Positions 8,961 through 38,776 of a stretch of DNA of 64,000 nucleotides are shown one piece after another. The notes beneath the pieces were generated by a model. The model saw only the letters and a program-made list of their open reading frames with translations, did no database searches and was not told the DNA's origin. Made by a program: the position numbers and the translations under genes. Source of the DNA: Deferribacteraceae bacterium UBA6799 (GTDB lineage: Bacteria; Chrysiogenota; Deferribacteres; Deferribacterales; Geovibrionaceae); the NCBI GenBank assembly GCA_002452335.1, contig DKFJ01000007.1, positions 66,571-130,570 of the forward strand, written 5' to 3'. Numbering within the stretch: the stretch's first letter is position 1; each line of letters starts with the position of its first letter.

Positions 8961-9447
8961 GGTCGGAATAATAATGGGCAGCAAGTCCGATTATGATATC
9001 GCTAAAGAAGCGGTGGATGTTCTGAAGAGTTTCGGCATAGAATACGAAGTGATCGTTTCCAGCGCCCACAGAACTCCCGAGCGCACTCTGGAATGGTCGA
9101 AAACTGCCGAAAGCAGAGGTCTGGACGCTATAATAGCTCTGGCGGGAGCCGCGGCTCATCTGGCTGGGGTTATCGCCAGCGAAACAAACCTACCTGTGAT
9201 AGCTGTCCCTGTGGCGGCTACAGCTCTGAACGGTCTGGACGCCCTGCTCTCCATGGTGCAGATGCCCGGAGGCATACCTGTGGCGACTATGGCCATCGGA
9301 AAAGCTGGATCCAAAAACGCCGGAATCTTCGCAGCGCAGATATTAGGACGCAGAGAACCTGAAATAGCCCGGAAACTGGCGCAGTATAAAGAAGACATGA
9401 AACAGAAGGTCTATCAGGACAATGAAGCTCTTCAGGAAATGCTTTGA
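8953..9447 (+). CDS. purE: N5-carboxyaminoimidazole ribonucleotide mutase
   Basis: MSKVGIIMGSKSDYD...SSAHRTPER...GAAAHLAG matches the PurE signature. Confidence 0.93.
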   Translation: MSKVGIIMGSKSDYDIAKEAVDVLKSFGIEYEVIVSSAHRTPERTLEWSKTAESRGLDAIIALAGAAAHLAGVIASETNLPVIAVPVAATALNGLDALLSMVQMPGGIPVATMAIGKAGSKNAGIFAAQILGRREPEIARKLAQYKEDMKQKVYQDNEALQEML

Positions 9448-10037
9448 TGCTTATAGGCTCTCAGGAAGTTATATATGATATCTTCAGGCGGGCTCGTTGT
9501 TTAAGCGAGCCCGTTGTTTTTCCCACCGACACTATATACGGTATCGGAGCGCCTCTGGCTGACAGCGAAGCCAACCGTAAGATATATGACATCAAAGGCA
9601 GAGAGAAGAACAAGCCCTTCCCCGTTCTGATATCTTCCATGAAACAGGCGAAAAGTCTGGCGGACACCGCCATGCACGCTGATCTGATAAAAAAACTCTG
9701 GCCTGGCGCATATACTCTGATTCTGAAAGCGAAAGATAATGTGGAGAATCTTTATACCCTGAACGGCAATATCGCCCTCCGCATGCCTGCCGATAAACGT
9801 CTGACAGACCTGATAGAAAAGACTGGACCACTAAGCGCCACCAGCGCCAACCTCTCCGGTCAGGAATACACTTCTGATTTCATACGGATTTTGACCTGTT
9901 TTCAATCCAGTGTGAAATTTTATGTCCATTCACGCACTAATGCTCTTAATTCTTCAGTAATAATAGATCTTACATCAGACGAGCCTGTTATTCTCAGGGG
10001 TGAAATAAACCTGCATGAAATACTGACAGATAAATGA
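9444..10037 (+). CDS. tsaC: L-threonylcarbamoyladenylate synthase (YrdC/TsaC family)
   Basis: FPTDTIYGIG...KGREKNKPFPVLISS...ATSANLSG are YrdC-domain motifs. Confidence 0.8.
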   Translation: MMLIGSQEVIYDIFRRARCLSEPVVFPTDTIYGIGAPLADSEANRKIYDIKGREKNKPFPVLISSMKQAKSLADTAMHADLIKKLWPGAYTLILKAKDNVENLYTLNGNIALRMPADKRLTDLIEKTGPLSATSANLSGQEYTSDFIRILTCFQSSVKFYVHSRTNALNSSVIIDLTSDEPVILRGEINLHEILTDK

Positions 10038-10122
10038 AAATTATGTAAAGACCTATTTCTATTATTGACACTTTAATTTGACAGGATTAAAATTGCTAAA
10101 CTTTTTTACAAAAGGAGATACC

Positions 10123-10491
10123 ATGAAGAAAGTTATACTTGCTGTAATGGTTGTTTTCGCATTCGCGCTTGTCGCTATTGCGGCTAATAACGGCCCTGCT
10201 ACAATCGATCTCGCAAAAGTATGGGGACTTCAGACAACTAAGAAACCTGTTCAGTTTCCCCACGCTGTTCACCAGTCCAAAAACCAGTGTACAGACTGCC
10301 ACGTTAAAGCTGATGGCGGCGCTCTGAAAAGTGTAAAAACCGGCGCTCCTCTCGATCCTAAAGCACTCGTTGCTGCCGGCACTCTGAAGAAAGGCGGCAT
10401 GAAAAACGCTATTCACGATGAATTCTGCTGGGAATGCCACGTTCAGAAAAAAGTTCCTCAGGGCAAATCCTGCACAAAATGCCACAAGTAA
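10123..10491 (+). CDS. secreted triheme c-type cytochrome (cytochrome c3/c7-like)
   Basis: Signal peptide MKKVILAVMVVFAFALVAIA and three CxxCH motifs (CTDCH, CWECH, CTKCH). RBS aaaggaga lies upstream of the ATG at 10123. Confidence 0.8.
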   Translation: MKKVILAVMVVFAFALVAIAANNGPATIDLAKVWGLQTTKKPVQFPHAVHQSKNQCTDCHVKADGGALKSVKTGAPLDPKALVAAGTLKKGGMKNAIHDEFCWECHVQKKVPQGKSCTKCHK

Positions 10492-10520
10492 TCTGACTTA
10501 CAGTTAAGATTCAAAAAAAA

Positions 10521-10552
10521 TAACCCCGCTTTATCAGGCGGGGTTTTTTATT
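10521..10552. terminator. bidirectional rho-independent terminator
   Basis: aaaaaaaa-taaccccgc-tttatcag-gcggggtt-tttta is flanked by A-runs and T-runs on both sides. It sits between the convergent cytochrome and membrane-protein genes. Confidence 0.7.
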
Positions 10553-11043
10553 TATTTCGGAAGTATCTTTTCCAGCTCAGCTATCTGAGAGATGATAGCC
10601 GGTTCATCCACCCATCCGTTCGCCTTATGCAGAAGGTCTTTTGCCTTCTGATACGCCTCGTGTCTGGCCTCTTCTGTCTCCTCTCTCTCCGCCTGTTCTA
10701 TCAGATTCATGCTCATGTCGAAAATCGACCATATCATATACCTGATCTGACGCGCTTTGTCATATTTCATCGCTATTCTGAAAGAGAAGAACACGATGAC
10801 CAGATAGATGGCCCACAGATACCATTTGAAAGGCTGATACAGCAGATAGACGGTGCCTATCATTATCACAGACATAGCGATGGCCATACCAAGCCCCGGT
10901 ACTCCCACATAAAAAACAGGTTCGCCGGGCGCTCCAATCTTCTGATTGTGACGTATGCTTCTGAACGCTTTCTGGTTCTCAAATTTTTTCTTATAAACAT
11001 CATACAGTTGTTTAAACTCTTCACTTATACGGACGTTTTGCAT
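10552..11043 (-). CDS. hypothetical small membrane protein
   Basis: 163-aa ORF with two hydrophobic helices and a C-terminal charged helix. No family recognised. Confidence 0.5.
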   Translation of the reverse strand: MQNVRISEEFKQLYDVYKKKFENQKAFRSIRHNQKIGAPGEPVFYVGVPGLGMAIAMSVIMIGTVYLLYQPFKWYLWAIYLVIVFFSFRIAMKYDKARQIRYMIWSIFDMSMNLIEQAEREETEEARHEAYQKAKDLLHKANGWVDEPAIISQIAELEKILPK

Positions 11044-11190
11044 CTTAAATATCCTTTTTACATTAATAAGTTTAAAATTTACATCATCTATAATTTTAAT
11101 ACAAGTTTTTTAAAATAAAGTGACAATTTAGTTAACTTAGTATATACTTATGACGATATCTTATTATATAAATTCTGTACGGGGAACTCA

Positions 11191-13192
11191 ATGAGTATTA
11201 AATTCAAGCTAATTCTTTCGTATCTTTTAGTTTCAGCATTTATTGTCGTTCTGTCAATGTCTTTCCTCTTTTCCAGCAGCAAGGTCAACGGTTTCATAAA
11301 CACAAATCTCAACGTGATATTAACCGATAAAGAGGCGTCCGGAACAATTAACAACGAGTTTAAAAACGTTGTAATTCACCTGAAAAGCGCTATAAGCGCC
11401 AGCACCACCAAAGAGATTGATTCTCTGGAACAGTTAAATAACGAAAGTTTCTCAAAAATAGACGAAGCACTCGACAACATAAAAAGCGCTGATGATATCC
11501 GTAACATGAGCGATGATATGAAGTCAAAGGCTGACACTTTTCTGAAGACCAAGAAAGAATATATAAAAGTGCATGATGATCTCATGCTTCAGTATGACGA
11601 TCTTGACTCTATGTTCAGAAAGCAGAAAGGCTACATCTTTGTCAGCCAGAACACGCTGAACAAACAGGCTGGGAGATATGCTCAGGAGCTTAACTATCTT
11701 GACAGGCTGATGGAGCTTCCTCTGGAGATAAAGGTTTACCTGTCTGAGGTTATCGGGGCGAAAGAAGAGATAGACACGGAAGAAGGCGTTTACTCTATCC
11801 TCTCTTTCACAAAGATACTCAAAGACAAAACTAACGTTTTTCTCACCGGAGGCAATTACAAAGGAGAGAACGTCAGACGCATTGACAATGAAGAGGTTCG
11901 CTCCAGAATGCAGCTTCTCTTAAAAACCACAAACGATATGGAAGCAGCCGCTAAACAGTTTCAGGAGACACAGATCAAGGTGATTAACCTTGAGAACAGT
12001 CTTTTTGTCCAGATAGCCGATCTGGAAAAACATGTTAATTCCACCGAACAGATACTGAACAACATGGAATCCACTGCAAAAACACAGATGGACAGCGGTA
12101 TCACAGAGGTTCGCAATATATCCAGCAGAGTAACCAGCACAACGTTCATAATGCTCGCCGTGATACTGGTTCTGGCTGTAATAGTCGGTCTCTTCTCCGC
12201 CACCAAGATCACAACGCCTCTGGTAAACATAATGACAGTGGCAGAGTGTATCAAACACGGAGACCTGACATGCGGGGAGATCAAAAAAACATCATCTGAC
12301 GAGTTCGGACACCTGACAGACTCTATCAACAATATGAAGAAGAGTCTCTATGAGCTGGTGCACAACATCAAGAACGGAACAGACTATCTCAGCGGAACCA
12401 GCGACCAGATGGTCACTCTAATGACACAGATGAACGAAAACCTGAACAACACCACACTGGAAATGACAGCGGTTGCCTCCGCGGCAGAAGAGCTTTCATC
12501 ATCCACATCCAACATCATAGAGAGCGTGCAGGCAGGTATCACAGAAGTTCAGAACGCTAAGAACAAAGTGAACGAAGGCAACAGCAAGCTCCAGCAGTCC
12601 ATTGCCCAGGTCAACAAGGTCGCGTCCAGTCTGGCCGGTGTTTCTGATAACCTGGAAGAGCTGAAAACAGCCAGTCAGGCGATCACAAACATCATCAGCA
12701 TAATCGTGGACATAGCCGAACAGACTAACCTGCTGGCGCTGAACGCGGCGATAGAAGCTGCCAGAGCGGGCGAAGCAGGCAGAGGATTCGCTGTGGTTGC
12801 TGACGAAGTGCGCAAGCTGGCGGAAAAGACCAGCACCTCCACACAGGAAATATCCTCAATGGTCAGCTCTATACAAAACAACGTAATTGGTGTGGTGGAC
12901 ATCATCCATCAGGGAATAGAGGAAGTTGAGCACAGCTCAGAATCCATCAACGCTGTCGGGGACAACTTCAAAGAAGTCGTTAACCAGATGCAGACCGCCG
13001 CAAACACTGTTGAGCCTATCCTCGTGATAATCGAACAGCAGTCTGAAGCTATCACCAATATTACAGCGACCGTGACAAACGTAAGTATTGCTTCCCAATA
13101 AGGTTATAGTAGATGAAGTAAGCAGTTTCTCCGACAAGATCGGCGATCTTGCTCACCAGCTTAAGGATAATACATCACAATTCAAGGTGTAG
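11191..13192 (+). pseudogene. methyl-accepting chemotaxis protein with an apparent +1 frameshift near the C-terminus
   Basis: HAMP and MCP signalling domain ([34 protein letters not shown]). Frame 0 stops at 13099-13101 (...NVSIASQ*). The +1 frame continues [31 protein letters not shown] to 13192, which is the canonical MCP tail. Confidence 0.7.
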
Positions 13193-13195
13193 GAT

Positions 13196-13978
13196 TTGAA
13201 CGACAAAATCTTAGAACTAAAATCAGTCAATAAACAATACAGAGCCTTTGAAGGATTCTTCAAAGGCTCTTCTGTTACCATCAACGCTGTGGACAATATT
13301 TCTCTGTCCATACAGAAAGGCAGGTCTCTGGGTATAGTTGGAGAATCAGGCAGTGGAAAAACAACACTGGCAAAACTGATAACAGACATCACCCGTCCTG
13401 ACAGCGGCAGTGTCCTCTATAAAGGAAAAGATATAAGACAGGCAGACAAAACAGAGTATCCCGCATACCGCAGGAACGTGCAGATGGTCTTTCAGGATCC
13501 GTATCTCAGCCTGAACCCTAAGCTGACTATTTTCTCCGCCATGAAAGACGGCATAGAAAAATATTACGGCAAAAAGGGACTGAGAGAAAAATGCGCAAAA
13601 TATCTGAACATGGTGGGGCTGGATGAAGAATATCTGGACAGATATCCTCACGAGTTCTCCGGCGGTCAGAGACAGAGGCTGTCCATAGCCAGGGCTCTTT
13701 CACTGGATCCGGAGATAATAGTAGCGGACGAGCCAGTCAGCTCTCTGGACGTATCCGTTCAGGCGCAGATACTGAACCTGATGAAAAAATTAAAACTTGA
13801 AAACGGGCTTACATTTATTCTAATATCTCATGACCTGTCTGTGGTCTCGTTTCTGTGCGATGACGTTCTGGTGATGAACAAAGGACAGATGGTGGAATAC
13901 GGCAGTGTGGAAGACGTTCTGAACAATCCGCGGCAGGAATATACCAAAAATCTTCTGACCGCCAGCAAAGGTGAATAA
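13196..13978 (+). CDS. ABC transporter ATP-binding protein (oligopeptide/dipeptide OppF/DppF-type), orphan
   Basis: Walker A GESGSGKTT, signature LSGGQRQR, Walker B IIVADEP. Uses a TTG start. No permease or binding protein is adjacent. Confidence 0.8.
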   Translation: MNDKILELKSVNKQYRAFEGFFKGSSVTINAVDNISLSIQKGRSLGIVGESGSGKTTLAKLITDITRPDSGSVLYKGKDIRQADKTEYPAYRRNVQMVFQDPYLSLNPKLTIFSAMKDGIEKYYGKKGLREKCAKYLNMVGLDEEYLDRYPHEFSGGQRQRLSIARALSLDPEIIVADEPVSSLDVSVQAQILNLMKKLKLENGLTFILISHDLSVVSFLCDDVLVMNKGQMVEYGSVEDVLNNPRQEYTKNLLTASKGE

Positions 13979-15417
13979 TGTTACAGGTTTATAATACACT
14001 CACAGCGAAAAAAGAAGAATTCAAACCGCTTACAGAAGGTAAAGTAAAGATGTATGTATGCGGAGTCACCGTTTATGACTTCTGCCACATAGGACACGCC
14101 AGAAGCTCCACTGTTTTTGACGTGATCCGCAGATATTTTCTTTATAAGGGCTATGAAGTCACCTTTGTGAAGAACTTTACCGATATAGACGACAAGATCA
14201 TCAAAAGAAGCAACGAGAACAACATCTTCTGGAAAGACCTTACAAAGCAGTTCATAGACGAGCACGACGCCGACATGGACGCCCTGAATATACTGCGCCC
14301 CGACCACACACCGAAGGCGACCGACTATATCCCCAACATGATAAAGATGTGTGAAACGCTTATGGAAAAAGGATTCGCCTATGAGTCAAACGGCGATATC
14401 TATTATCGTGTGCAGAAATTCGATGACTACGGCAAGCTCTCCAACCGCAAGCTGGAAGATATGATGGCGGGCGCCCGTATAGAAGTGAACGACAACAAGG
14501 AGAACCCTTTCGACTTCGTTCTGTGGAAAGCCAGCAAACCGGGAGAACCCAGCTGGGACAGCCCATGGGGCAAGGGACGCCCCGGATGGCATATCGAATG
14601 CAGCGTCATGAGCGAAGATATACTCGGGCTGCCCTTTGACATACACGGCGGCGGGCGTGACCTTATCTTTCCCCACCACGAGAACGAGATAGCCCAGTCT
14701 GAGGCGGCATGCGGATGCGAATTCTCCAGATACTGGATACATAACGGGTTCGTGAACGTTAATCAGGAAAAGATGTCCAAATCTCTCGGCAATTTTTTCA
14801 CCATCCGCACCGTGCTGGATGAGTTCAACGCCGAGATAGTCAGATATTTCCTGCTGACCACACACTACAGAAGCTCACTTGATTTCTCACAGGATCACCT
14901 GCTGGAGGCTGAGAAGTCTCTGGACAGAATATATACCATGCTGGATGAAATAAACAGGTTCAACGCCGGCAAGAAAGGCACAGACGTATCCGCTGAGGCT
15001 GAAAACACTGCGAAAGTTTTCATGGAAAAATTCGTGTCCGCCATGGATGATGATTTCAATACGCCTGAGGTTCTGGCGGCTCTTTTCGAGGCAGTGCGTG
15101 AATTCAACAGGCTTCTGGCGGCAAAACCTGAGAAAAACAGCTTCGAGACCCTGAAAGAATCATGCACAAAAGTTTTTAAAACAGTTGCGGACGTTCTAGG
15201 CATCATAACATACACTCCCCAGCAGTGGTTCAGACTGAACCTGTCCATCCCTGAAGATGAGCTGAAAACAGCCATAGATCAAAGAGCGCAGGCGAAGAAA
15301 GATAAAGACTTCGCCAAAGCGGACGAGATCAGAAACGGTCTGAAAGACAAGGGAATCGAGCTGCTCGATACTATCGAAGGAACGATCTACCGGGCGAAAA
15401 AAATAAGAAACCTATAG
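13978..15417 (+). CDS. cysS: cysteinyl-tRNA synthetase
   Basis: CGVTVYDFCHIGHARS (HIGH) and KMSKSLGN, in a 479-aa protein. Confidence 0.95.
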   Translation: MLQVYNTLTAKKEEFKPLTEGKVKMYVCGVTVYDFCHIGHARSSTVFDVIRRYFLYKGYEVTFVKNFTDIDDKIIKRSNENNIFWKDLTKQFIDEHDADMDALNILRPDHTPKATDYIPNMIKMCETLMEKGFAYESNGDIYYRVQKFDDYGKLSNRKLEDMMAGARIEVNDNKENPFDFVLWKASKPGEPSWDSPWGKGRPGWHIECSVMSEDILGLPFDIHGGGRDLIFPHHENEIAQSEAACGCEFSRYWIHNGFVNVNQEKMSKSLGNFFTIRTVLDEFNAEIVRYFLLTTHYRSSLDFSQDHLLEAEKSLDRIYTMLDEINRFNAGKKGTDVSAEAENTAKVFMEKFVSAMDDDFNTPEVLAALFEAVREFNRLLAAKPEKNSFETLKESCTKVFKTVADVLGIITYTPQQWFRLNLSIPEDELKTAIDQRAQAKKDKDFAKADEIRNGLKDKGIELLDTIEGTIYRAKKIRNL

Positions 15418-15422
15418 AACAC

Positions 15423-15452
15423 TGCCCCGCTTAGTGCGGGGCTTTTTTTTTG
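15423..15452 (+). terminator. rho-independent terminator after cysS
   Basis: ccccgc-ttagt-gcgggg followed by nine T residues. Confidence 0.75.
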
Positions 15453-15521
15453 TCGATTTACGTTAAGTTTTCGTTTGATTATCCGAATTGTGTAATACTT
15501 ATTATTATTGAGGGTATTACA

Positions 15522-17075
15522 ATGCAAATCTCCAACCTGAACGCTTCCAACATTGTCTTAAATTCCTCTACGACAACTTTTGCGGTCAAACTTGCTGACT
15601 CAGGTAGTTCTGGTGATACTTTTTCATCCGGAAACAATTCTGTTTCATTGTCATATAATATGTTCGGCAGACAGCAGAACAATATTTTCAGCACAATGGC
15701 GCAGGATAATGAATTCATGTCCGACCTCAGAAAGGTGTTCAGCACAGTGGAAGATAACCTTCTCAGCCAGGAGAGCGATAACGACAGAATCAGCGTTTAT
15801 TACTCAGATGACGCCACCATCTCATCCGGAGAGGGCGATGACAGAATAAGCGCCTACTACTCTGACAATGTAAACATCGATTCCGGCTCAGGAGACGATA
15901 ATATTGACACATATCACTCTGAAAACGCCAATATAAACTCAGGTTCAGGGGATGATGACATCAGTGTCTATTACTCTAAAAATGCCAATATCAATTCAGG
16001 TTCCGGCAGTGACAGAATAAGCGCCTATTACTCTGCCAATGTAAATATCGCTTCCGGTTCAGGAGACGACAGAATAAGCGTCTATCACTCCAAAGGAGCT
16101 AATATATCCTCCGGTTCCGGTAAAAACGACATAGACGCCTATTACACTGAGAATACATCAATCACCACGGACGGAGACGACAGCAGAGTCAGTGTCTATC
16201 ACTCTAAAAACACCTCTACAGCAACCGGTGCCGGTGATGACATGCACTCAATGTACTACTCAGATGCTAATCAAACAGATCTGGGAGACGGAGATAACAG
16301 CGCCAGCATATACAACACATCAAACTCAGGCCTGACAACAGGAAGCGGCGATGATAGTCTGTCAGTCTACTATTCTGATAATGTTACGGCAGATATGGGC
16401 GGCGGAGACAACAGAGGCAGTGTGCATTACTCAGACAATACGACTGTGAAAACCGGTAACGGAAACGATAACTTCTCTGTTTATGACTCTGACTCTATAA
16501 CAATGGAATTATCAGGCGGAAACAACAGGATAGACATTAATTCATCTGATAACGTATCCGTATCCACAGGCGACGGAAAAGACAACATCACAATCACAGA
16601 CACTTCCGGAGCAAACATATCAACCGGAGCCGGAGACGACAGGATACAGATGAACAATTTCGCTGGAACAGCAGTCATAGACGGCGGAGACGGCAACGAT
16701 ACTATCGTTGGCAGAGGCGAAATAGTCGGAGGAGCCGGAGATGACAACATCTCAGGATCCGGAGTCCTGACTGGCGGTACAGGCAACGACTACATCACTC
16801 TGGTGAATAAAATGGGAACACCTGATGACGTCTCAGGATCAACTGTGAACTACAGCAGAGGCGACGGAAATGATATTATCAGCGTGGACGCTGAAAACTC
16901 CACTCTTAACATGAACGATATCTCTCAGGATGAAGTCGATATATCTGAGACCTTCAACAGAGTGGGAGAAAAAGTTACTACCATATCCATGAAGGACGGC
17001 AGCGGAAGCGTCACCGTGTCCGGACCGCAAAGACTTTCATCAATAACCTTCTCTGATTCATCAATTATTTTCTGA
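15522..17075 (+). CDS. tandem-repeat calcium-binding (RTX-like beta-roll) protein, putative secreted or adhesin
   Basis: About 16 tandem 20-aa repeats (consensus SGSGDDRISxYYSxNxNIxS), followed by canonical GGxGxDxUx nonapeptides (GGDGNDTIVG, GGAGDDNISG, GGTGNDYITL). There is no N-terminal signal peptide. Start chosen at MQISNL. Confidence 0.7.
   Translation: MQISNLNASNIVLNSSTTTFAVKLADSGSSGDTFSSGNNSVSLSYNMFGRQQNNIFSTMAQDNEFMSDLRKVFSTVEDNLLSQESDNDRISVYYSDDATISSGEGDDRISAYYSDNVNIDSGSGDDNIDTYHSENANINSGSGDDDISVYYSKNANINSGSGSDRISAYYSANVNIASGSGDDRISVYHSKGANISSGSGKNDIDAYYTENTSITTDGDDSRVSVYHSKNTSTATGAGDDMHSMYYSDANQTDLGDGDNSASIYNTSNSGLTTGSGDDSLSVYYSDNVTADMGGGDNRGSVHYSDNTTVKTGNGNDNFSVYDSDSITMELSGGNNRIDINSSDNVSVSTGDGKDNITITDTSGANISTGAGDDRIQMNNFAGTAVIDGGDGNDTIVGRGEIVGGAGDDNISGSGVLTGGTGNDYITLVNKMGTPDDVSGSTVNYSRGDGNDIISVDAENSTLNMNDISQDEVDISETFNRVGEKVTTISMKDGSGSVTVSGPQRLSSITFSDSSIIF
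15774..16810 (+). repeat. array of about 16 diverged 60-bp coding tandem repeats
   Basis: Units such as tattactc(t/a)ga(c/t)aatg(t/c)aaa(c/t)atc.attc(c/a)gg.tcaggagacgacagaataagcg(c/t)c recur every 60 bp. Confidence 0.8.
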
Positions 17076-17099
17076 TATTACAATCAAACAGTATAAATG

Positions 17100-17130
17100 G
17101 AAAAGGCAGGCTGAAAAGCCTGCCTTTACA
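17100..17130. terminator. bidirectional terminator between the convergent RTX-like and HD-GYP genes
   Basis: aaaaggcaggc-tgaaaa-gcctgccttt. Confidence 0.6.
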
Positions 17131-17243
17131 CAATATGTTAGAACCTACAGGGGATATACAAAGAGCCTAAGCTCAAGGAATGTTGTCGTTATAAGTTAAA
17201 GATAACAGATGAAAGAAATAGTTCAATATAATTATCTAAAAAA

Positions 17244-18449
17244 TTATTTAATTTCGTTCATCTTTTCAATATAAGCGTAAACTTTGCTGGGAATTTTTAT
17301 ATCGGCAGGATTCACAGGACCTAAAATCTTTCTTTTATTAATAGCGGATACTGACAGATCAACTATCTGAATGGGCTTCTCGCGTCCCATCTTATCAGAA
17401 AAAATAAGCACAGTGGGGTTAGTTGGCTTGTTATGGTTTATCTTTCCTATAACGCCCAGCTCGTTGGTATCCATCAACACCAGAGACCCGACAGGGTATA
17501 TGCCCACGTTCATCACGAAGAAGTCAAAGACCTTTCTGTTGATATGCGAATCTGTCCACTTGAACATCAGACGGAGCGCCTGTGCCGCCTCCATTCCCTT
17601 GTGATAGCACCTGTCGCTGGTTATGGCGTCATAAATATCCACCACAGCCCCTATTTTGCCCTCTATGGATATTTCCTCATCCTTAAGCCCGTTAGGGTAT
17701 CCGGAGCCGTCATGTCTCTCGTGGTGCTGAAGAGTGAGGTTCAGCATATCTTCCGGAACGCCGTTATCCAGCAGAAAATCATATCCGAGCTGAACATGAT
17801 TCTTCATTATCCGGAACTCCTCCTCGGTCAGCTTGCCGGGTTTATTCAGAATTTCCTGCGGAACCAGCATCTTTCCTACATCATGCAGCAGACCGGCCTT
17901 GGCTATCCTTTCGATGTCCCTGTGACTCATGCCCAGATGCGCCGCCAGACTGGAAGCGAAGATGCCCACATTCATAGAATGCTGAAAAGTGTAGTTGTCA
18001 TAATGTTTCAGCTTGGTAACGCTCGCCAGAACGCCTTTGTTCTTCATGGTTATCTCGGCTATGTTCGAAGCCACAGCCTTCACCGCGCCGTCTTTGAACA
18101 TTGCGCCTGTGCGGATGTCCTCCATAAATGATTTCACGACCTTCACCGATTCGGTATATATAACCTTGGCGTTCTTGACCTCATCCAGATTGATGTAATT
18201 TTTTTTGATCTCTTCTCTGTGGCGGTTAATGACAGATTCAGCATTGCCGCTGTAGAGTTCTTTTATGGATTCTTCTTCTTCGGAATATTCGATATAGACA
18301 TAATCGACATTATTATGCTTGAGTTTATCAATAACGGATTGATCTTTAATGAGAAAATGATGTGAGAAAAAACCAGTATCGAGCCAGTTTTTATCCAGCT
18401 TGACAACTTTATCGCCGATCTTTAAATCAACCACACTGACTTTTTTCAT
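17244..18449 (-). CDS. HD-GYP domain c-di-GMP phosphodiesterase
   Basis: LLHDVGK and HHERHDGSGYPNGL motifs, with an N-terminal accessory domain. Confidence 0.85.
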   Translation of the reverse strand: MKKVSVVDLKIGDKVVKLDKNWLDTGFFSHHFLIKDQSVIDKLKHNNVDYVYIEYSEEEESIKELYSGNAESVINRHREEIKKNYINLDEVKNAKVIYTESVKVVKSFMEDIRTGAMFKDGAVKAVASNIAEITMKNKGVLASVTKLKHYDNYTFQHSMNVGIFASSLAAHLGMSHRDIERIAKAGLLHDVGKMLVPQEILNKPGKLTEEEFRIMKNHVQLGYDFLLDNGVPEDMLNLTLQHHERHDGSGYPNGLKDEEISIEGKIGAVVDIYDAITSDRCYHKGMEAAQALRLMFKWTDSHINRKVFDFFVMNVGIYPVGSLVLMDTNELGVIGKINHNKPTNPTVLIFSDKMGREKPIQIVDLSVSAINKRKILGPVNPADIKIPSKVYAYIEKMNEIK

Positions 18450-18508
18450 TATTTACCCAAATGTATATATGTACAAAATCTACAGCAAACAATGAAAGAT
18501 ATCAAGAT

Positions 18509-19177
18509 TTATGATTGGGACACCCCGTACTGCTTCTTTATAAACTGCCATCCGTTATAAACGTGCTTTTCTACAACTTTTTCTACAAGAGATTCATCTC
18601 CTTTCTCAAATGCCTCAAGGAGCTCGTTATGCTCGTCTCTGACTTCCTGTGTTCTGCCGTCTATGGAGAAAGAATATACAGTCGCCCTTTTGAACTGCTG
18701 CTGCAGTCCTTCCAGCATTTTTATCAGGCGCTCGTTTCCGCATTTATATATGAATATCCTGTGAAAGTCATAGTTCCAGTTTATCATTTGGGAAACAGCT
18801 TTGGATGAGCCGGTGTCCATCTTTTTCACCAGATCTCTCATTTTTTCCAGATCGTGTTTGTCAATATGCGGGACAGCCAGCTTGGATGCCAGAGGTTCCA
18901 GCTTCATCTTTATAACAAAGATATCGTCTATATCTTTATCAGTGAGAGTGGTCACCACAGCGCCTCTTCTGGGGATTATCTCTATGAAGCCTTCCATCTC
19001 CAGAAGCCTCAGCGCCTCGCGTATTGGTGTTCTGGATATACCCAGCATCTCTGAGAGCTTCGGTTCCACAAGCCTCTCTCCGGGTTTTATTATACCTTTG
19101 ATTATGTTATTTCTGATAGTAAGAGCGATCTTTTCACTCAGCGGCGTATTGTCAATATTAATGTCTTTGGCGCCCAC
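18509..19177 (-). CDS. GntR family transcriptional regulator (FadR/FCD subfamily)
   Basis: Helix-turn-helix segment ISRTPIREALRLLEMEGFIEI and an FCD C-terminal domain. Confidence 0.85.
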   Translation of the reverse strand: MGAKDINIDNTPLSEKIALTIRNNIIKGIIKPGERLVEPKLSEMLGISRTPIREALRLLEMEGFIEIIPRRGAVVTTLTDKDIDDIFVIKMKLEPLASKLAVPHIDKHDLEKMRDLVKKMDTGSSKAVSQMINWNYDFHRIFIYKCGNERLIKMLEGLQQQFKRATVYSFSIDGRTQEVRDEHNELLEAFEKGDESLVEKVVEKHVYNGWQFIKKQYGVSQS

Positions 19178-19195
19178 AACGTCCTCTTTTTAAAG

Positions 19196-19864
19196 CTAAC
19201 TGCTTTTAATTTGTTCTTTAAGATATTCCCAGCTGCTAATTATATGGTCTCTGACAGTACGTTCTGCGAGATCCGGGTCTTTTGATATGAAAGCGTCTAT
19301 TATCTTCTTATGCTCTTTCACGGCGTTCTGCGCGCGCCCGGTATCAGAGACCAGCATGCTTTTCAGCCTTTGAAAGTTTTTGGACAGTCCGTCCAGAATA
19401 TCCACCAGCTTCACATTGCCTGAGGCTGCTATGAAAATATTATGAAAGTCTATGTTATCTTTCAGATATTCATCTGATACATCGGGGTTTTTCTCCGCAT
19501 AATCTTTGAACTTGCGGTTGATGCCGATGAGTATTTCGAGCTGTTCTTCACTGAGGTTGATGGTTGCCTGTCTGGCGGCCAGCCCTTCCAGATTCGCCTT
19601 AATAGCGTACAGGTCATCTATATCTTTAATGGTCAGCTCCTTCACCACGGCGCCTCTTCTGGGGACTATCTCTATGAAGCCCTCCCCCTCTAGCTGGCGC
19701 AGCGCCTCCCTGATGGGAGTTCTGGAGATACCGAGATTTTTAGCGAGCTTTGGCTCAACAAGCCTTTCGCCATTGCGGAAGACGCCTTTGATTATGTCTG
19801 TTCTGATCTTATCGGCTATCTTCTCTCTTAAAGGTTTGCTCTCAATAAATACTTCCTGATTCAA
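19196..19864 (-). CDS. GntR family transcriptional regulator (FadR/FCD subfamily), tandem paralog
   Basis: ISRTPIREALRQLEGEGFIEIVPRRGAVV. It has the same length and architecture as its neighbour. Confidence 0.85.
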   Translation of the reverse strand: MNQEVFIESKPLREKIADKIRTDIIKGVFRNGERLVEPKLAKNLGISRTPIREALRQLEGEGFIEIVPRRGAVVKELTIKDIDDLYAIKANLEGLAARQATINLSEEQLEILIGINRKFKDYAEKNPDVSDEYLKDNIDFHNIFIAASGNVKLVDILDGLSKNFQRLKSMLVSDTGRAQNAVKEHKKIIDAFISKDPDLAERTVRDHIISSWEYLKEQIKSS

Positions 19865-19911
19865 TCACTAAACCCCTTAAACATACATATAAATAACTGA
19901 ACATACAGTAC

Positions 19912-19923
19912 ACAGTATACTGT
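19912..19923. promoter_or_regulatory. candidate GntR-family operator palindrome
   Basis: ACAGTATACTGT is a perfect 12-bp palindrome that fits the GntR consensus NyGT-Nx-ACrN. Flanking half-site-like copies are acatacagta and atacagtcacag. It lies 48 bp upstream of the first GntR gene of the pair. Confidence 0.4.
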
Positions 19924-20021
19924 ATACAGTCACAGAAAATATAACCGTTTTTTTATTGGCAGTCAATCAGTATAATACTAATATTAAAATTGATTTGGAT
20001 AAAAAATATCAGATAGAAAAA

Positions 20022-20359
20022 AAGAAGACCTATAAGCCGGATTCTGTTATAGACGGTCATTTGTCTAGGCTCACAGTTGCCTGTGAGCTCGAGCTGCCTA
20101 CCCGCGGACAAAGAACGGGCCGTTCTGTACTGTCCGCCTATTTGGCATTGCACCGGATGGGGTTTGCCGTGCCGTTCACGTTGCCGTGAACGCGGTGGTC
20201 TCTTACACCGCCGTTTCACCCTTACCGGACCAGGTCCGGCGGTCTGTTCTCTGTGGCACTGTCCCTGTCTTGCGACAGGCCGACGTTATCGGTCACCCTG
20301 CCCTATGGTGTCCGGACTTTCCTCCCGTGCCTGAGCACCGGCGACCGTCCGGTCTTCTT
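20022..20359 (-). ncRNA. rnpB: RNase P RNA (bacterial type A)
   Basis: The minus-strand transcript contains GGGAGGAAAGTCCGGACACCATAGGGCAGGGTG (P4 region), GGTAAGGGTGAAACGGCGGTGTAAGAGACCACCG and ACAGAATCCGGCTTATAG. P1 is closed by aagaagacc / ggtcttctt. The region is GC-rich in an AT-rich background. Confidence 0.9.
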
Positions 20360-20363
20360 AGCT

Positions 20364-21131
20364 TTATGTATATATTTTTGAGCGCTCTTTGACAACTGTT
20401 TTAATAGGCAGCATGATATCCGGTCTGTTTGTCGTCAGGGCGTCTATACCCAGATTACCGAAAAATTCGGCGTCATCCGTGTCGTCCACTGTCCACACGT
20501 TCATCAGCATGCCCTTCAGCCTTTTCCTCATATGTTCGCAGTGCACTCTGTCCGCCTTGGTCGAAAAACCGTCCAGACCAGCGCCCAGCACCATCTCCAC
20601 AGCTCTGTCATACGGCGAGCCTTTCAGGTTGAATCCGAACTCGCCTATCCACAGGGCTCTGTATTCACGAAGATTCGCCTTTATATGCTTTATGGTCTCA
20701 TACCCGAAACCGAAGATTATTATATTGTCCCTCAGGCGCTCATAATCTCTGAGCAGGGTGATAAGAGGCAGAGTTATCTCTTTTCCGCATTTGATCTCTA
20801 TGTATATCTGACGGTCGGGGGGAAGGATATCCAGCACCTCAGACAGTCTGGGTATGCGCTCGCCGGTGAATTTTTCATCTTTCCAGCTTCCGGCATCCAG
20901 AGAAGCTATTCTGCTGTATAGAGTTTTGCTGACATCACATGCCTGTCTGCATGTTCTTCTGGTATTTTTATCATGGAGAGCGACTATCTCGCCGTCCAGA
21001 GTCATGCGGACATCCAGCTCTATGCCGTCAGCCCCCTGAGACAGAGCCAGAGAAAAAGCAGAAAGTGTGTTCTCGGGAGCGGTGTATGACGCTCCTCTGT
21101 GGGCGATTATAAGCATGAGGATAAAATACAC
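20364..21131 (-). CDS. glycerophosphodiester phosphodiesterase
   Basis: IIAHRGASYTAPENTLSAF...GADGIELDVRMTLDGEIVALHD are GDPD-family motifs. The start may instead be at 21116 (MLIIAHRG). Confidence 0.85.
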   Translation of the reverse strand: MYFILMLIIAHRGASYTAPENTLSAFSLALSQGADGIELDVRMTLDGEIVALHDKNTRRTCRQACDVSKTLYSRIASLDAGSWKDEKFTGERIPRLSEVLDILPPDRQIYIEIKCGKEITLPLITLLRDYERLRDNIIIFGFGYETIKHIKANLREYRALWIGEFGFNLKGSPYDRAVEMVLGAGLDGFSTKADRVHCEHMRKRLKGMLMNVWTVDDTDDAEFFGNLGIDALTTNRPDIMLPIKTVVKERSKIYT

Positions 21132-21215
21132 CGGAAAAGCAAAAAAAGAAGTAAAAGAAATGATATATAGTATAAAATTTAACTTCAGGAAGCAGTTTTC
21201 GGAGTGAATCGTATT

Positions 21216-31600: not shown

Positions 31601-32401
31601 TTACTTAATAGAGAAGCCCACAACCGCTTCAGGTGTTATAACCCTGAAGGTGAAGGACTCCGTCAGAAACAGGTTGACCTTTTCGGAATCGTGGCTGTGA
31701 TATCCCACAGCGAAATCCTGTCCGATGGTCAGCTCAAGGTCGCCCTCTCTGTCCGCCACCATGACAGCTCCGTCCACAGCCTCGGAATAGATAATGTCGC
31801 CTTTGATCTGTTCTTTCACTATGTCGCCGAGTGCTCCGCCGGGAACCACATGGGCGAGGAATTTCCACAGAGCGGGAGACACCACAAGGTTAGCCCCTGT
31901 TTTTATCCCCTCTTTTCTCATGCGTCCCTGCGCTTCGGACAAAGCTTCCACTATGCTGTCCTTGTCCAGCGCCATAGCTATTCTGTCTTTTGCCGCGATC
32001 TGATTCAATCCAACTATACCGCCGCTCTTGAATCCGTTAAAAACAGCAGTCTCTTCGAAAGCCGCCATCTTTCTGGCCGCTTCAGTCAGAGCATCGAACT
32101 GAATGTCTTTCGCTCCTCTTTCGATATTGTCCAGCTCCCAGATGTTCAGCGAAAAATTAACCCTCGCCTCCACCAATGGAAGAACCTTGTTAACGCCGTA
32201 CTGAACGCCGTCTTTTTTCTGTCCGGACGGTATATCTAAACGACCGAGGCTCACACAGGCATAGTCTACGCCTTTTGGACCTTCTACGTCGGAAAATTTT
32301 CTTGCGGAAAGATTTGCTGTCAGTGTTGCCTTGGCGAGTGAGGCTATTTCGTCCCACGCCGCTCCGCTGACTGGTGCATATTCTTTTCTGAGAAGACTCA
32401 T
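31601..32401 (-). CDS. Family 1 encapsulin nanocompartment shell protein (HK97 fold, linocin-like)
   Basis: MSLLRKEYAPVSGAAWDEI...LWELDNIERGAKD...GDLELTIGQDFAVGYHSHDSEKVNLFLTESFTFRVITPEAVV is collinear with Thermotoga maritima encapsulin (...LWELDNLERGKPN...[41 protein letters not shown]). Confidence 0.85.
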   Translation of the reverse strand: MSLLRKEYAPVSGAAWDEIASLAKATLTANLSARKFSDVEGPKGVDYACVSLGRLDIPSGQKKDGVQYGVNKVLPLVEARVNFSLNIWELDNIERGAKDIQFDALTEAARKMAAFEETAVFNGFKSGGIVGLNQIAAKDRIAMALDKDSIVEALSEAQGRMRKEGIKTGANLVVSPALWKFLAHVVPGGALGDIVKEQIKGDIIYSEAVDGAVMVADREGDLELTIGQDFAVGYHSHDSEKVNLFLTESFTFRVITPEAVVGFSIK

Positions 32402-38012: not shown

Positions 38013-38013
38013 G

Positions 38014-38775: not shown

Positions 38776-38776
38776 A

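What the first reader, a model, noticed from the sequence alone, without database searches (positions are those of the whole stretch)
15522..17075. Tandem-repeat protein built from a 20-residue 'RTX nonapeptide + YYSDN insert' unit, ending in canonical RTX repeats, with no type I secretion system nearby
About 16 consecutive 60-bp repeats encode xGSGDDRISxYYSxNxNIxS. Each unit holds one GGxGxDxUx-like calcium-binding turn (SGSGDDRIS) plus an 11-residue Tyr/Asn-rich insert, an alternation I have not seen described. The array then degenerates into three textbook nonapeptides (GGDGNDTIVG, GGAGDDNISG, GGTGNDYITL) and an 88-aa C-terminal tail that could act as a T1SS-type secretion signal. There is no N-terminal signal peptide. 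No HlyB/HlyD genes occur in the 64 kb, and the only TolC-like gene belongs to the RND operon. The repeat DNA is diverged to roughly 70-80% identity between units, but the array is still a candidate hotspot for length variation.
Basis: seen in the sequence. Interest (0 to 1): 0.6.

Follow-up and report, generated by a model that had tools for sequence, protein, structure and literature searches.

The report
Calcium-binding 19-residue-repeat solenoid protein
This gene encodes a rod-shaped, probably secreted protein built from sixteen 19-residue calcium-binding coils; the fold is already known from an Antarctic ice-binding adhesin, but here it sits in a very rare, uncharacterised protein family of Deferribacterales whose genes carry a flagellar-type promoter motif.

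Summary
The repeat protein is real: ORF 15522-17075 (+), 517 aa. It is 19 aa (57 bp), not 20 aa (60 bp), with 16 units in perfect register. The units are about 50% identical at DNA level, not 70-80%.

What is new:
- The second turn is YYSxN, giving a conserved Tyr/Ser stripe.
- The protein belongs to a tiny family: 5 clusters among 1.84 billion representatives, with a shared N-terminal region.
- Family members often occur as tandem paralogues.
- Five of six independent family loci carry a sigma-28-like promoter block.
- A near-conspecific MAG has 13 units instead of 16, through clean whole-unit indels.

No type I secretion genes lie in the window or beside any family locus. The export route is therefore inferred, not shown. 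An unlinked T1SS is most likely; flagellar export is a minority alternative. This is a new variant of a known kind, of moderate interest.

The parts
15424..15442 (+). Intrinsic terminator hairpin of the upstream cysS gene, with a T-run to about 15451. It makes the repeat gene a separate transcription unit. It also overlaps the alternative TTG start at 15450, which is therefore implausible.
   Evidence: Terminator scan; sequence.
15463..15489 (+). Sigma-28-like promoter block TTAAGTTT-n11-TCCGAATT. The -35 element is 15463-15470 and the -10 element is 15482-15489. The E. coli consensus is TAAAGTTT-n11-GCCGATAA.
   Evidence: Consensus from PMC2859248. The same GTTAAG-N16-CGAW block, with the same spacing, lies upstream of family genes in L003, L089, L090 and L093. 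Only 3 other matches occur in the 92 loci then held. It is the only such motif in a promoter position for any ORF in the window's gene list. Its function is inferred, not shown.
15510..15514 (+). Shine-Dalgarno sequence GAGGG, 7 nt before the ATG.
   Evidence: Sequence.
15522..17075 (+). Coding sequence: 517 aa plus a TGA stop. The protein is acidic (pI 4.05) with 0 Cys and 0 Trp.
   Evidence: Same gene call in a JGI contig. Purifying selection against the MAG orthologue, dN/dS 0.13.
15522..15767 (+). Family-specific N-terminal region, residues 1-82. Residues 1-54 are predicted disordered and Ser/Asn/Thr-rich, with a conserved M-x-I-S/T start. The YNMFG...NIF motif follows, then two helices (52-60 and 63-81) that probably cap the N-terminal end of the solenoid.
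   Evidence: Alignments A1, A3 and A4. AF2 secondary structure and pLDDT. A profile of this region finds only 5 proteins among 1.84 billion representatives.
15768..16679 (+). Sixteen tandem 57-bp (19-aa) units, residues 83-386, with consensus S-G-S-G-D-D-R-I-S-V-Y-Y-S-x-N-A-N-I-x. Each unit has one GxGDD Ca-binding turn, two short beta-strands (positions 7-11 and 15-19) and a YYS turn.
16680..16802 (+). Three RTX-type turns (GGDGNDTIV, GGAGDDNIS, GGTGNDYIT), each followed by a 6-residue GxGxUx spacer, giving a 15-aa period. Residues 387-427.
   Evidence: Sequence. Pfam HemolysinCabind scores 21.0 bits against a cut-off of 23.
16803..17072 (+). C-terminal beta domain, residues 428-517. It carries family-conserved motifs (Y-x-[RKL]-GDG-x-D, DEVDI, MKDGSGS-x-T) and ends ...ITFSDSSIIF. 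It is the predicted C-cap of the solenoid and the putative uncleaved secretion signal.
17105..17124 (.). GC-rich hairpin GGCAGGC-TGAAAA-GCCTGCC, flanked by A- and T-runs, between the convergent repeat gene and the HD-GYP gene. It looks like a bidirectional terminator.
   Evidence: Sequence. It did not pass the strict T-run rule of the scan.

Best explanation
ORF 15522-17075 encodes a 54-kDa, acidic, cysteine-free protein that folds into a long two-sheet right-handed beta-solenoid.

Anatomy:
- Sixteen 19-residue coils each carry a single Ca2+-binding turn (xGxGDD) on one edge and a non-binding Y-Y-S-x-N turn on the other. This is the same construction as region IV of the Marinomonas primoryensis ice-binding adhesin.
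- Three 15-residue RTX-type coils follow.
- A C-terminal beta-sandwich cap like that of CyaA RTX block V ends the protein.
- A family-specific N-terminal segment (about 50 disordered residues plus two helices) probably caps the other end.

Inferred mechanism, by analogy with RTX proteins. At low cytosolic Ca2+ the chain stays unfolded. It is exported unfolded, most probably C-terminus first, through a type I secretion system encoded elsewhere in the genome. Outside the cell, Ca2+ binding folds it from the C-cap towards the N-terminus. The result, by arithmetic on about 19 coils, is a rigid rod of about 9-10 nm. The rod displays a conserved Ser9/Tyr11/Tyr12/Ser13 stripe and more variable faces, which suits a surface-binding (adhesin-like) or surface-coat role.

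The gene is monocistronic. It is probably read from a sigma-28-type promoter, that is, together with late flagellar and motility genes.

Shown here: repeat anatomy, predicted fold, family membership, unit-number variation, purifying selection, and a conserved upstream motif. Inferred: Ca2+ binding, the secretion route, sigma-28 dependence, and the binding function.
For: Repeat anatomy and composition:
- Sixteen units are in perfect 19-aa register.
- pI 4.05, no Cys.

Sequence and fold matches:
- The best PDB sequence match is 3p4g_A (MpAFP RIV), in register.
- The RIV repeat XGTGND-XUXU-GGXUXG-XUX and its one-sided Ca2+ binding are described in PMC6891781.
- The AF2 model has mean pLDDT 82 and pTM 0.72, with two strands per unit at pLDDT 85-97.
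- The top Foldseek hits are all RTX domains.

Family:
- Relatives share the N- and C-terminal regions and 19-aa units.

Real gene under selection:
- Against the MAG orthologue dN/dS is 0.13, with clean indels of 19 and 38 aa.
- Positions 4, 6 and 13 never differ between the orthologues, and positions 2, 9, 11 and 12 differ once. Positions 7, 14, 17 and 19 vary most.
- Tyr codons differ between units, so the Tyr stripe is kept by selection rather than by recent duplication.

Transcription unit:
- Own terminators and Shine-Dalgarno sequence.
- The sigma-28-like block is conserved in 5 of 6 independent family loci.
Against: - No ABC/MFP type I secretion genes are in the 64-kb window.
- None lie within about 10 kb of any family locus examined: L088, L003, L001, L089, L090, L093.
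- Whether the genome has a T1SS at all could not be tested.
- Pfam HemolysinCabind is just below its cut-off for this protein (21.0 against 23 bits).
- The strongly conserved extreme N-terminus (M-x-I-S/T-G) and the disordered N-terminal 50 residues are not explained by a purely C-terminal signal.
- No ligand or function is indicated by neighbouring genes, which differ between family loci.
- Model coordinates could not be inspected, so the inward or outward orientation of the Tyr residues rests on the strand pattern and analogy with 3P4G.
- The sigma-28 assignment rests on resemblance to a consensus from other phyla. The two MCP genes in the window lack the motif.
Confidence: 0.55

Rival explanations
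1. Same protein and fold, but exported through the flagellar type III apparatus, using the disordered and conserved N-terminus, as a sigma-28 (late flagellar class) co-expressed secreted factor. In this reading the Ca2+ switch keeps the chain unfolded for passage through the narrow flagellar channel rather than through a T1SS.
For: - A sigma-28-like promoter block is conserved in 5 of 6 independent family loci.
- About 54 N-terminal residues are predicted disordered. The family-wide start is M-x-I-S/T-G.
- No T1SS genes lie beside any family member.
- Two family loci sit next to chemotaxis genes and/or a sigma-54 two-component regulator.
- Distant relatives of the repeat occur inside bona fide flagellins (L033, L063), so GxGxD solenoid repeats can pass the flagellar export channel.
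Against: - There is no detectable similarity to Flagellin_N or any known flagellar substrate (Pfam scan at E up to 10).
- Sigma-28 regulons also include non-exported proteins. Vibrio cholerae FrhA, named the flagellar-regulated hemagglutinin, is itself an RTX adhesin (named as such in PMC10865825).
- The C-terminal RTX coils plus cap are exactly what T1SS substrates carry.
- The N-terminal conservation could simply reflect a capping or anchoring role.
Confidence: 0.18
2. A self-assembling surface-layer or coat protein of the RsaA type: a T1SS-secreted RTX protein that forms a Ca2+-dependent lattice anchored by its N-terminus to the outer membrane.
For: - A conserved N-terminal region could serve as an anchor.
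- Tandem paralogues with divergent repeat regions, and faster amino-acid change than the downstream neighbours HD-GYP and GntR (omega 0.13 against 0.00-0.02), fit an exposed antigen-like protein.
Against: - The RsaA matches are weaker than those to MpIBP RIV and are generic beta-solenoid similarity.
- A sigma-28-type promoter is not what one expects for a constitutive, very abundant S-layer gene.
- The family is extremely rare.
- There is no evidence of lattice-forming domains.
Confidence: 0.08
3. A cytoplasmic or membrane-associated 'Toastrack' (DUF4097/LiaG-like) beta-solenoid that is not secreted and does not depend on Ca2+.
For: Weak Pfam DUF4097 hit (E 2e-4, 21.1 bits) and weak NCBIfam LiaG hit (18.7 bits). 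No secretion genes are nearby.
Against: - Both hits are below threshold: 22.9 bits for DUF4097 and 285 bits for LiaG.
- There is no transmembrane segment.
- The GxGDD turns and the RTX-type C-cap are specific to Ca2+-binding secreted proteins.
Confidence: 0.05
4. An ice-binding or antifreeze protein like MpIBP region IV.
For: Same 19-residue fold. The best PDB match by sequence and the best low-rmsd match by structure is the antifreeze domain 3P4G.
Against: - In 3P4G the Ca-bound turn reads xGTGND. Here the turn is xGSGDD.
- The other family members lack any regular Thr array.
- The genomic setting is an anaerobic Deferribacterales organism with cytochrome c3/c7 and molybdopterin oxidoreductase neighbours.
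- The protein is not part of a giant adhesin.
Confidence: 0.02
5. A curli-like functional amyloid subunit.
Against: - The rmsd is 8.7 Å, so the resemblance is only in general solenoid shape.
- There is no Curlin_rpt Pfam hit.
- There is no Sec signal peptide, which CsgA needs.
- No csgB/E/F/G-like genes are in the window.
- N- and C-terminal caps argue against open-ended polymerisation.
Confidence: 0.02

Closest known systems
Region IV (ice-binding domain) of Marinomonas primoryensis MpIBP/MpAFP, PDB 3P4G
   Same: - 19-residue coil with one xGxG(N/D)D Ca2+-binding turn per coil.
- Hydrophobic residues at positions 8, 10 and 18.
- A continuous one-sided beta-roll, followed in the polypeptide by RTX nonapeptides, a C-cap and a T1SS signal (PMC6891781).
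   Different: - The second turn is Y-Y-S-x-N instead of G-G-x-U-x-G.
- The Ca turn reads S-G-D-D instead of T-G-N-D, so the regular Thr/Asn row is absent.
- Sixteen coils rather than 12.
- A stand-alone 517-aa protein rather than one domain of a 1.5-MDa adhesin with Ig-like extenders and a retention module.
- Only 18% identity.
- A different phylum and an anaerobic setting.
Canonical RTX beta-roll with C-terminal cap (e.g. Bordetella CyaA RTX block V; serralysin-type proteases and lipases)
   Same: - GGxGxD Ca turns, acidic and Cys-free composition, and a C-terminal capping domain.
- Expected Ca2+-triggered folding after export.
   Different: - Canonical rolls use contiguous 9-residue repeats (18 per turn) that bind Ca2+ on both edges. 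Here the periods are 19 and 15, with Ca turns on one edge only.
- Pfam PF00353 is sub-threshold.
- There is no catalytic or toxin domain.
- There is no linked T1SS operon.
Vibrio cholerae FrhA (flagellar-regulated hemagglutinin A), an RTX adhesin
   Same: An RTX-type surface protein whose name ties it to flagellar regulation and which mediates colonisation and biofilm formation (PMC10865825 abstract; the supporting study, Syed et al. 2009, appears only as a title in the reference list of PMC12077191). It is a precedent for an RTX-type protein linked to the flagellar regulon.
   Different: FrhA is a giant multi-domain adhesin with a dedicated T1SS. The present protein is small and consists only of the solenoid plus caps. 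Its sigma-28 dependence is only inferred from a motif.
Unannotated 17- to 20-residue 'half-RTX' repeat proteins in metagenomes (hits P0004-P0064)
   Same: One GxGxD turn per 17-20-residue coil. Many have the same type of C-terminal domain (PF06594/PF00353 in some).
   Different: They lack the family's N-terminal region. They come mostly from Proteobacteria, Selenomonadales, Planctomycetota and Cyanobacteria. Some are linked to T1SS ABC genes (8 of 80 loci).

Membership tests
RTX proteins (PF00353 HemolysinCabind; T1SS substrates) | Tandem GGxGxDxUx nonapeptide repeats recognised by the family model | tested here: inconclusive
   The whole protein gives no PF00353 hit. The C-terminal 136 aa score 21.0 bits against a cut-off of 23. 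Three GGxGxD turns are spaced 15 aa apart and sixteen GxGxD turns 19 aa apart. Homologue P0003 passes the cut-off with 33.9 bits.
RTX proteins (PF00353 HemolysinCabind; T1SS substrates) | C-terminal capping domain and uncleaved C-terminal secretion signal | tested here: met
RTX proteins (PF00353 HemolysinCabind; T1SS substrates) | Cognate ABC transporter, membrane-fusion protein and outer-membrane factor | tested here: not met
   None in the 64-kb window. None beside six family loci. Presence elsewhere in the genome cannot be tested here.
RTX proteins (PF00353 HemolysinCabind; T1SS substrates) | Acidic pI, few or no cysteines, no N-terminal signal peptide | tested here: met
   pI 4.05 and 0 Cys. 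The N-terminus is polar with no hydrophobic core.
MpIBP region IV-type one-sided Ca2+ beta-solenoid | 19-residue period forming one continuous roll | tested here: met
   TRF period 57 bp. Sixteen units in register. Lag-19 identity 0.418, z = 19.
MpIBP region IV-type one-sided Ca2+ beta-solenoid | One xGTGND-type Ca2+ turn per coil plus xUxU and xUx strands | tested here: met
   Column profile: G2 in 12/15 units, G4 in 13/15, D/N5, D/N6, I8, V/A/I10, I/V18. The HMMER alignment to 3p4g is in register. Ca2+ binding itself was not tested.
MpIBP region IV-type one-sided Ca2+ beta-solenoid | Second loop GGxUxG | tested here: not met
   Positions 11-16 read Y-Y/H-S-x-N-A/V. Other family members have x-x-S-x-N-U.
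MpIBP region IV-type one-sided Ca2+ beta-solenoid | Three-dimensional fold | tested here: met
MpIBP region IV-type one-sided Ca2+ beta-solenoid | Regular Thr/Asx ice-binding row, and being a domain of a giant adhesin | tested here: not met
   Ser and Asp replace Thr and Asn in the Ca turn. The protein is 517 aa with no Ig-like extender or retention domains.
DUF4097 Toastrack / LiaG | Score above the curated family cut-off | tested here: not met
   PF13349 scores 21.1 bits against 22.9. NF049997 scores 18.7 bits against 285.
Curli CsgA | Curlin repeat signature, Sec signal peptide, csg accessory genes | tested here: not met
Sigma-28 (FliA) dependent promoters | TAAAGTTT-n11-GCCGATAA-like -35 and -10 elements with correct spacing, upstream of the start codon | tested here: inconclusive
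   The window has TTAAGTTT-n11-TCCGAATT: 7 of 8 and 4 of 8 matches with exact n11 spacing. The block is conserved in 5 of 6 independent family loci. Recognition by FliA and the transcription start were not tested.

The most novel reading that the evidence does not exclude
The family is a previously unrecognised class of flagellar-regulon proteins. Each member would be a small Ca2+-switched, one-sided beta-solenoid, transcribed from a sigma-28 promoter and exported without a dedicated type I system, possibly through the flagellar type III channel by way of its conserved, disordered N-terminus. Once outside, it would act as a motility-phase adhesin or as a coat on the flagellum or cell surface. 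The giant flagellins seen in Melainabacteria MAGs, whose central domains are built from related GxGxD solenoid repeats, show that such repeats can travel that route.
Probability: 0.15. Interest if true: 0.7.

Novelty: new variant of a known kind. Interest (0 to 1): 0.4.

Why it matters
The finding extends the one-sided 19-residue Ca2+ beta-solenoid beyond its single well-characterised example, one domain of a 1.5-MDa Antarctic ice adhesin (3P4G). Here the fold appears as a small stand-alone protein in an anaerobic, metal- or oxyanion-respiring phylum, and the non-binding turn is rebuilt as a conserved Tyr/Ser stripe. That shows the scaffold is a general display platform and not an ice-specific invention.

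The family is very rare, often tandemly duplicated, and variable in coil number. It also carries a conserved flagellar-type promoter motif with no linked type I secretion genes. This makes it a compact test case for two questions:
- How are RTX-like proteins exported when no dedicated T1SS is encoded beside them?
- Are Ca2+-switch solenoids used as motility-phase surface factors?

Practically, a 16-coil, Cys-free, Ca2+-switchable rod with defined faces could interest protein engineers. If none of the inferred steps holds, this is simply one more RTX-like hypothetical protein.

Tried and rejected
- **Word-indexed search with the N-terminal alignment (A3).** It found nothing at E <= 0.01. The exhaustive profile search was needed instead.
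- **Context of the closest named homologue.** P0001 (Seleniivibrio woodruffii) is not on record, so its context could not be seen.
- **AlphaFold database fold search.** The library was unavailable.
- **Locus-specific hyper-divergence.** I first thought the gene was hyper-divergent relative to its flanks (dS 0.95 against 0.09 for cysS). I rejected this as gene-specific because the downstream genes HD-GYP and GntR1 have similarly high dS (0.86 and 0.92; GntR2 and GDPD 0.54-0.57). The comparison is a mosaic with a boundary near the 5' end of the gene. What is specific to the gene is a higher omega than those downstream regulators, 0.13 against 0.00-0.02.
- **Link to the selenium-nanosphere protein SefA of Thauera.** I considered this because the closest named relative comes from a bacterium I recall as selenate-respiring. 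No paper connects SefA with RTX and I had no SefA sequence to compare, so I dropped it.
- **Riboswitch or sRNA upstream.** Rfam found nothing significant; SorX scored 19 bits against a threshold of 46.6, over the terminator hairpin.
- **Two ABC exporters at 45302-48869 as a hidden T1SS.** Rejected. They are ABC-B half-transporters beside MFS genes, with no membrane-fusion partner.
- **Alternative TTG start at 15450,** which would add a hydrophobic N-terminal extension. Rejected. It lies in the T-run of the cysS terminator, the Shine-Dalgarno sequence precedes the ATG at 15522, and all relatives start M-x-I-S/T.
- **T1SS linkage among 80 distant genome loci.** Only 8 have a full-length ABC exporter within 10 kb, and none of these are among the closest relatives. 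L015 is a classical giant-adhesin/T1SS operon of a different class.
- **The sigma-28-like motif upstream of the window's MCP genes or the chemotaxis genes of L093.** Not found.
- **Literature on T1SS in Deferribacteres.** Nothing found.
Full report
**1. Observation**

The region holds one long ORF on the + strand. The longest reading starts at a TTG (15450). That codon lies in the T-run of the cysS terminator (hairpin 15424-15442). A Shine-Dalgarno GAGGG (15510-15514) precedes the ATG at 15522. A JGI gene call on an identical contig uses that ATG and gives 517 aa.

The repeat is real, but its period is 19 residues (57 bp), not 20 residues (60 bp).
- Tandem Repeats Finder reports period 57.
- Laying the protein out in 19-residue rows from residue 83 gives 16 rows in perfect register with no indel.
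- Residue identity at lag 19 is 0.418, against 0.099 +/- 0.017 for shuffles (z = 19). Lag 20 is at background, 0.127.

At DNA level the units are old. Mean pairwise identity is 50% (range 33-81%), about 61% among units 1-7, and the longest exact direct repeat is 18 bp. The 1.8-kb locus is 100% identical in two separately assembled long contigs, Logan SRR5323996 and JGI 3300002596.

**2. Anatomy**

The consensus unit is S1-G2-S3-G4-D5-D6-R7-I8-S9-V10-Y11-Y12-S13-x14-N15-A16-N17-I18-x19.

After unit 16 come three GGxGxD turns at residues 388, 403 and 418. They are spaced 15 residues apart (a nonapeptide plus a GxGxUx spacer), so they are not contiguous nonapeptides.

The last 90 residues carry motifs conserved across relatives: Y-x-[RKL]-GDG-x-D, DEVDI and MKDGSGS-x-T. 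The protein ends ITFSDSSIIF.

The protein has pI 4.05, no Cys, no Trp and two Pro. Its N-terminus is polar with no signal-peptide core.

A hairpin at 17105-17124 separates the gene from the convergent HD-GYP gene. The gene is therefore monocistronic.

**3. Database annotation**

No curated family claims the protein.
- Pfam gives only a sub-threshold DUF4097 'Toastrack' hit (21.1 against 22.9 bits).
- NCBIfam gives a weak LiaG hit (18.7 against 285 bits).
- Even the C-terminal 136 residues alone score 21.0 bits against the 23-bit cut-off of HemolysinCabind.

**4. Fold**

The best sequence match among solved structures is 3p4g_A, the Ca2+-dependent antifreeze domain (region IV) of the Marinomonas primoryensis adhesin, aligned in repeat register.

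The RTX review PMC6891781 describes that domain as an atypical beta-roll with 19 residues per turn. Its repeat is XGTGND-XUXU-GGXUXG-XUX, and Ca2+ is bound on one edge only. Region V follows it, with four nonapeptides, a C-cap and the T1SS signal. The window unit SGSGDD-RISV-YYSxNA-NIx superimposes on this pattern position for position, except for the second loop.

An AlphaFold2 model built with 37 aligned sequences has mean pLDDT 82 and pTM 0.72.
- Residues 1-54 are disordered.
- Two helices span 52-60 and 63-81.
- Each 19-residue unit then has exactly two strands (positions 7-11 and 15-19) at pLDDT 85-97.
- A confident C-terminal beta domain follows.

The top Foldseek hits are all RTX domains.

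Among the 64 sequence relatives, one Ca turn per 17-, 18-, 19- or 20-residue coil is common.

**5. The family**

Full-length relatives are few and distant, about 30-37% identity. They include:
- A hypothetical protein of Seleniivibrio woodruffii (P0001) and several metagenomic proteins.
- A Deferribacteraceae MAG protein (L003).

All share the N-terminal region (M-x-I-S/T-G ... YNMFG-x-x-x-x-NIF ... VF-x-x-VE), 19-residue units, the RTX turns and the C-terminal domain.

A profile of the N-terminal region, searched exhaustively against 1.84 billion representative proteins, finds only five proteins. All are 392-457 aa long with the same architecture. None has the Y-Y pair. Their units read xGxGNDSxxxxxSxNxIIN, so S13 and N15 are family-wide and the Tyr stripe is specific to this lineage.

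The window's neighbours place it in Deferribacterales.

Family genes are often duplicated in tandem:
- L090 has a 522-aa copy followed by P0070.
- L095 has P0069 followed by a second copy.
- L089 has P0072 followed by a 79-aa N-terminal fragment.

Two further members, P0071 and P0072, occur in the same JGI metagenome that contains the window's locus. Several loci sit next to integrases. Gene neighbourhoods are otherwise not conserved.

**6. A conserved promoter-like block**

Upstream of the window gene lies TTAAGTTT-n11-TCCGAATT (15463-15489). The E. coli sigma-28 consensus is TAAAGTTT-n11-GCCGATAA (PMC2859248).

The same GTTAAG-N16-CGA(T/A) arrangement, with identical spacing, lies about 35-65 nt before the start codon in L003, L089, L090 (first paralogue) and L093. 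The surrounding DNA there is otherwise unalignable. It is absent from L001 and from the second genes of tandem pairs.

In the 92 loci held at that point (roughly 1.4 Mb by my estimate) the strict pattern occurs 13 times. Ten of those are at family genes. In the 64-kb window it occurs once, here. Even a relaxed pattern hits no other promoter position for any ORF in the gene list.

The block is clearly a conserved cis-element. Reading it as a sigma-28 promoter is inference from resemblance. The window's two MCP genes lack it.

**7. Comparison with a near-conspecific genome**

MAG GCA_050251875.1 has the same synteny. Its CysS is 99.4% identical to the window's.

Its orthologue of the repeat protein is 81% identical. 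It differs by exactly two in-register gaps, of 19 and 38 residues, giving 13 units against 16. Given the DNA divergence, this happens on an evolutionary rather than a phase-variation time scale.

Selection:
- dN/dS is 0.13 overall and similar in all three regions of the protein, so this is a functional gene.
- The high dS (0.95) is shared with the adjacent downstream genes HD-GYP and GntR1 (0.86 and 0.92; GntR2 and GDPD 0.54-0.57). Upstream genes have dS 0.04-0.31. The two genomes are thus mosaic, with a boundary near the gene's 5' end.
- Specific to this gene is an omega 6-10 times higher than that of the downstream regulators.

Within the units, positions 4, 6 and 13 never differ between the orthologues, and positions 2, 9, 11 and 12 differ once. 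Positions 7, 14, 17 and 19 vary most. Tyr codons differ among units. The Ser9/Tyr11/Tyr12/Ser13 stripe is therefore under selection.

The MAG allele carries an in-frame TGA at the Gly482 codon. The 35 codons after it still show omega 0.05, so the stop is recent or an assembly error.

**8. Secretion**

Every large ORF in the window was scanned.
- The only OEP gene belongs to a TetR-MFP-AcrB-OEP operon.
- The two ABC-B half-transporters at 45302-48869 sit beside MFS genes and have no membrane-fusion protein.
- There is no HlyB/HlyD pair.

No family locus has T1SS genes within about 10 kb. Among 80 more distant genome loci, only 8 have a full ABC exporter nearby. Unlinked substrates are not unusual for RTX proteins (my own knowledge of the family, not tested here), so this does not refute T1SS export. 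It leaves the route unproven, and I could not search the rest of the genome.

A minority alternative is flagellar type III export. It rests on:
- the sigma-28-like block;
- the disordered, conserved N-terminus;
- the chemotaxis genes and sigma-54 regulator neighbours of two loci;
- the passing observation that related GxGxD repeats form the central domain of true flagellins in Melainabacteria MAGs. L033 is a 1549-aa ORF with Flagellin_N and Flagellin_C. L063 has Flagellin_N, repeats and Flagellin_C split over three frames.

Against it: there is no similarity to known flagellar substrates, and there is a textbook RTX C-cap.

**9. Most likely mechanism**

- Shown: the repeat anatomy, the predicted one-sided solenoid with N- and C-caps, purifying selection, whole-coil indels, and the conserved upstream block.
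- Inferred from the RTX literature (PMC6891781): the chain stays disordered at cytosolic Ca2+ levels. It is exported unfolded, most likely C-terminus first by an unlinked T1SS. It then folds on binding roughly one Ca2+ per coil, nucleated at the C-cap.
- Inferred from geometry: this gives a rod of about 19 coils (roughly 9-10 nm, by arithmetic at about 4.8 Å per coil) that presents a conserved Tyr/Ser stripe and variable polar faces, which suits binding to a surface or polymer.
- If the promoter reading is right, the protein is made with late flagellar genes, as a motility-phase adhesin or coat. Vibrio cholerae FrhA, an RTX adhesin named the flagellar-regulated hemagglutinin, is a loose precedent (PMC10865825).

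**10. Verdict**

The protein is RTX-like with no linked T1SS and real length variation, but the construction is not undescribed.

It does not formally meet Pfam's RTX threshold. It differs from MpIBP region IV in the second loop, the putative binding row, the protein context and the host. I therefore file it as a new variant of a known kind: a stand-alone, Tyr-striped member of a very rare Deferribacterales-centred family of one-sided Ca2+ solenoids. Interest is moderate (0.4). The structural principle is known. The rarity, the conserved flagellar-type promoter block and the unresolved export route are worth a follow-up.

Noticed in passing
L033 7811-12457 (+); L063 8752-11014 (+); L056 3845-14176 (+): Giant flagellins whose central variable domain is built from RTX-like GxGxD solenoid repeats. 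L033 (Melainabacteria MAG) is an intact 1549-aa ORF with Flagellin_N (residues 21-156) and Flagellin_C (1459-1545) flanking the repeat match. L063 (Gastranaerophilales) has Flagellin_N, repeats and Flagellin_C split over three frames. L056 is a 3444-aa ORF with Flagellin_N at its N-terminus. I am not aware of Ca2+-binding RTX-type repeats being described as a flagellin surface domain.
   Followed up: partly
window 15463-15489; L003 9850-9875; L089 7507-7532; L090 4596-4621; L093 9929-9954: A conserved GTTAAG-N16-CGA(T/A) block with fixed spacing upstream of five independent family genes. It resembles the sigma-28 consensus TAAAGTTT-n11-GCCGATAA. The spacer also shares TTTCACA in four of the loci.
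   Followed up: yes
L088 about 8819-8821, aligned to window codon Gly482 at 16965-16967: The MAG orthologue has an in-frame TGA where the window has GGA (Gly). This truncates the last 35 residues of the C-cap and putative secretion signal. The codons after it are still under strong purifying selection (omega 0.05), so it is a recent nonsense mutation or a MAG consensus error.
   Followed up: partly
window 7978-21177 compared with L088: Divergence between the window and the near-conspecific MAG is a mosaic. It is 96-99% identical upstream of the repeat gene (dS 0.04-0.31), 70-84% within the gene, and 84-93% downstream (dS 0.54-0.92). This suggests a recombination boundary near the gene's 5' end.
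   Followed up: partly
L085, L086, L087, ending at window positions 15969, 15882 and 16039: Three independent short-read contigs all end inside units 2-5 of the array, although the longest exact internal repeat is only 18 bp. One possibility is co-existing alleles with different unit numbers in those samples. This is unexplained.
   Followed up: no
L090 4668-7572; L095 26-2444; L089 7572-9200: Family genes occur as tandem paralogue pairs. Their N-termini are near-identical or closely similar and their repeat regions diverge (in the L095 pair the first ~100 residues are nearly identical). In L089 a full gene is followed by a 79-aa N-terminal fragment. In L090, L093 and L001 an integrase gene lies downstream of the family gene (next gene in L090 and L093; one small ORF intervenes in L001).
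   Followed up: partly
L093/L094 1-9721 and L090 470-4390: Two family loci lie directly downstream of a histidine kinase plus sigma-54-dependent response-regulator pair. In L093 this pair follows a chemotaxis cluster (MCP, CheA/W, CheY, STAS, MCP, CheY).
   Followed up: no
window 31601-32401 (-): Encapsulin shell protein gene (Linocin_M18, E 1.6e-77). The cargo gene was not examined.
   Followed up: no
window 36756-41143 (-) and L089 3054-7333 (-): A LolA-like (PF17131) gene is paired with a ~415-aa protein that has no Pfam match. The pair lies next to an MMPL transporter in the window and next to a MacB/FtsX ABC system in L089. This recurring, uncharacterised envelope-export module appears near family genes in two places.
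   Followed up: no
window 17244-18449 (-), 30007-31458 (-), 56974-58584 (+): Several c-di-GMP turnover genes are in the window: an HD-GYP convergent with the repeat gene, and two GGDEF proteins with Cache sensors. The HD-GYP adjacency is conserved in the MAG but not in other family loci.
   Followed up: no
window 18509-19864 (-): Two tandem paralogous GntR/FCD regulators of 222 aa each. One of them is 100% conserved at protein level against the MAG despite dS 0.54.
   Followed up: no
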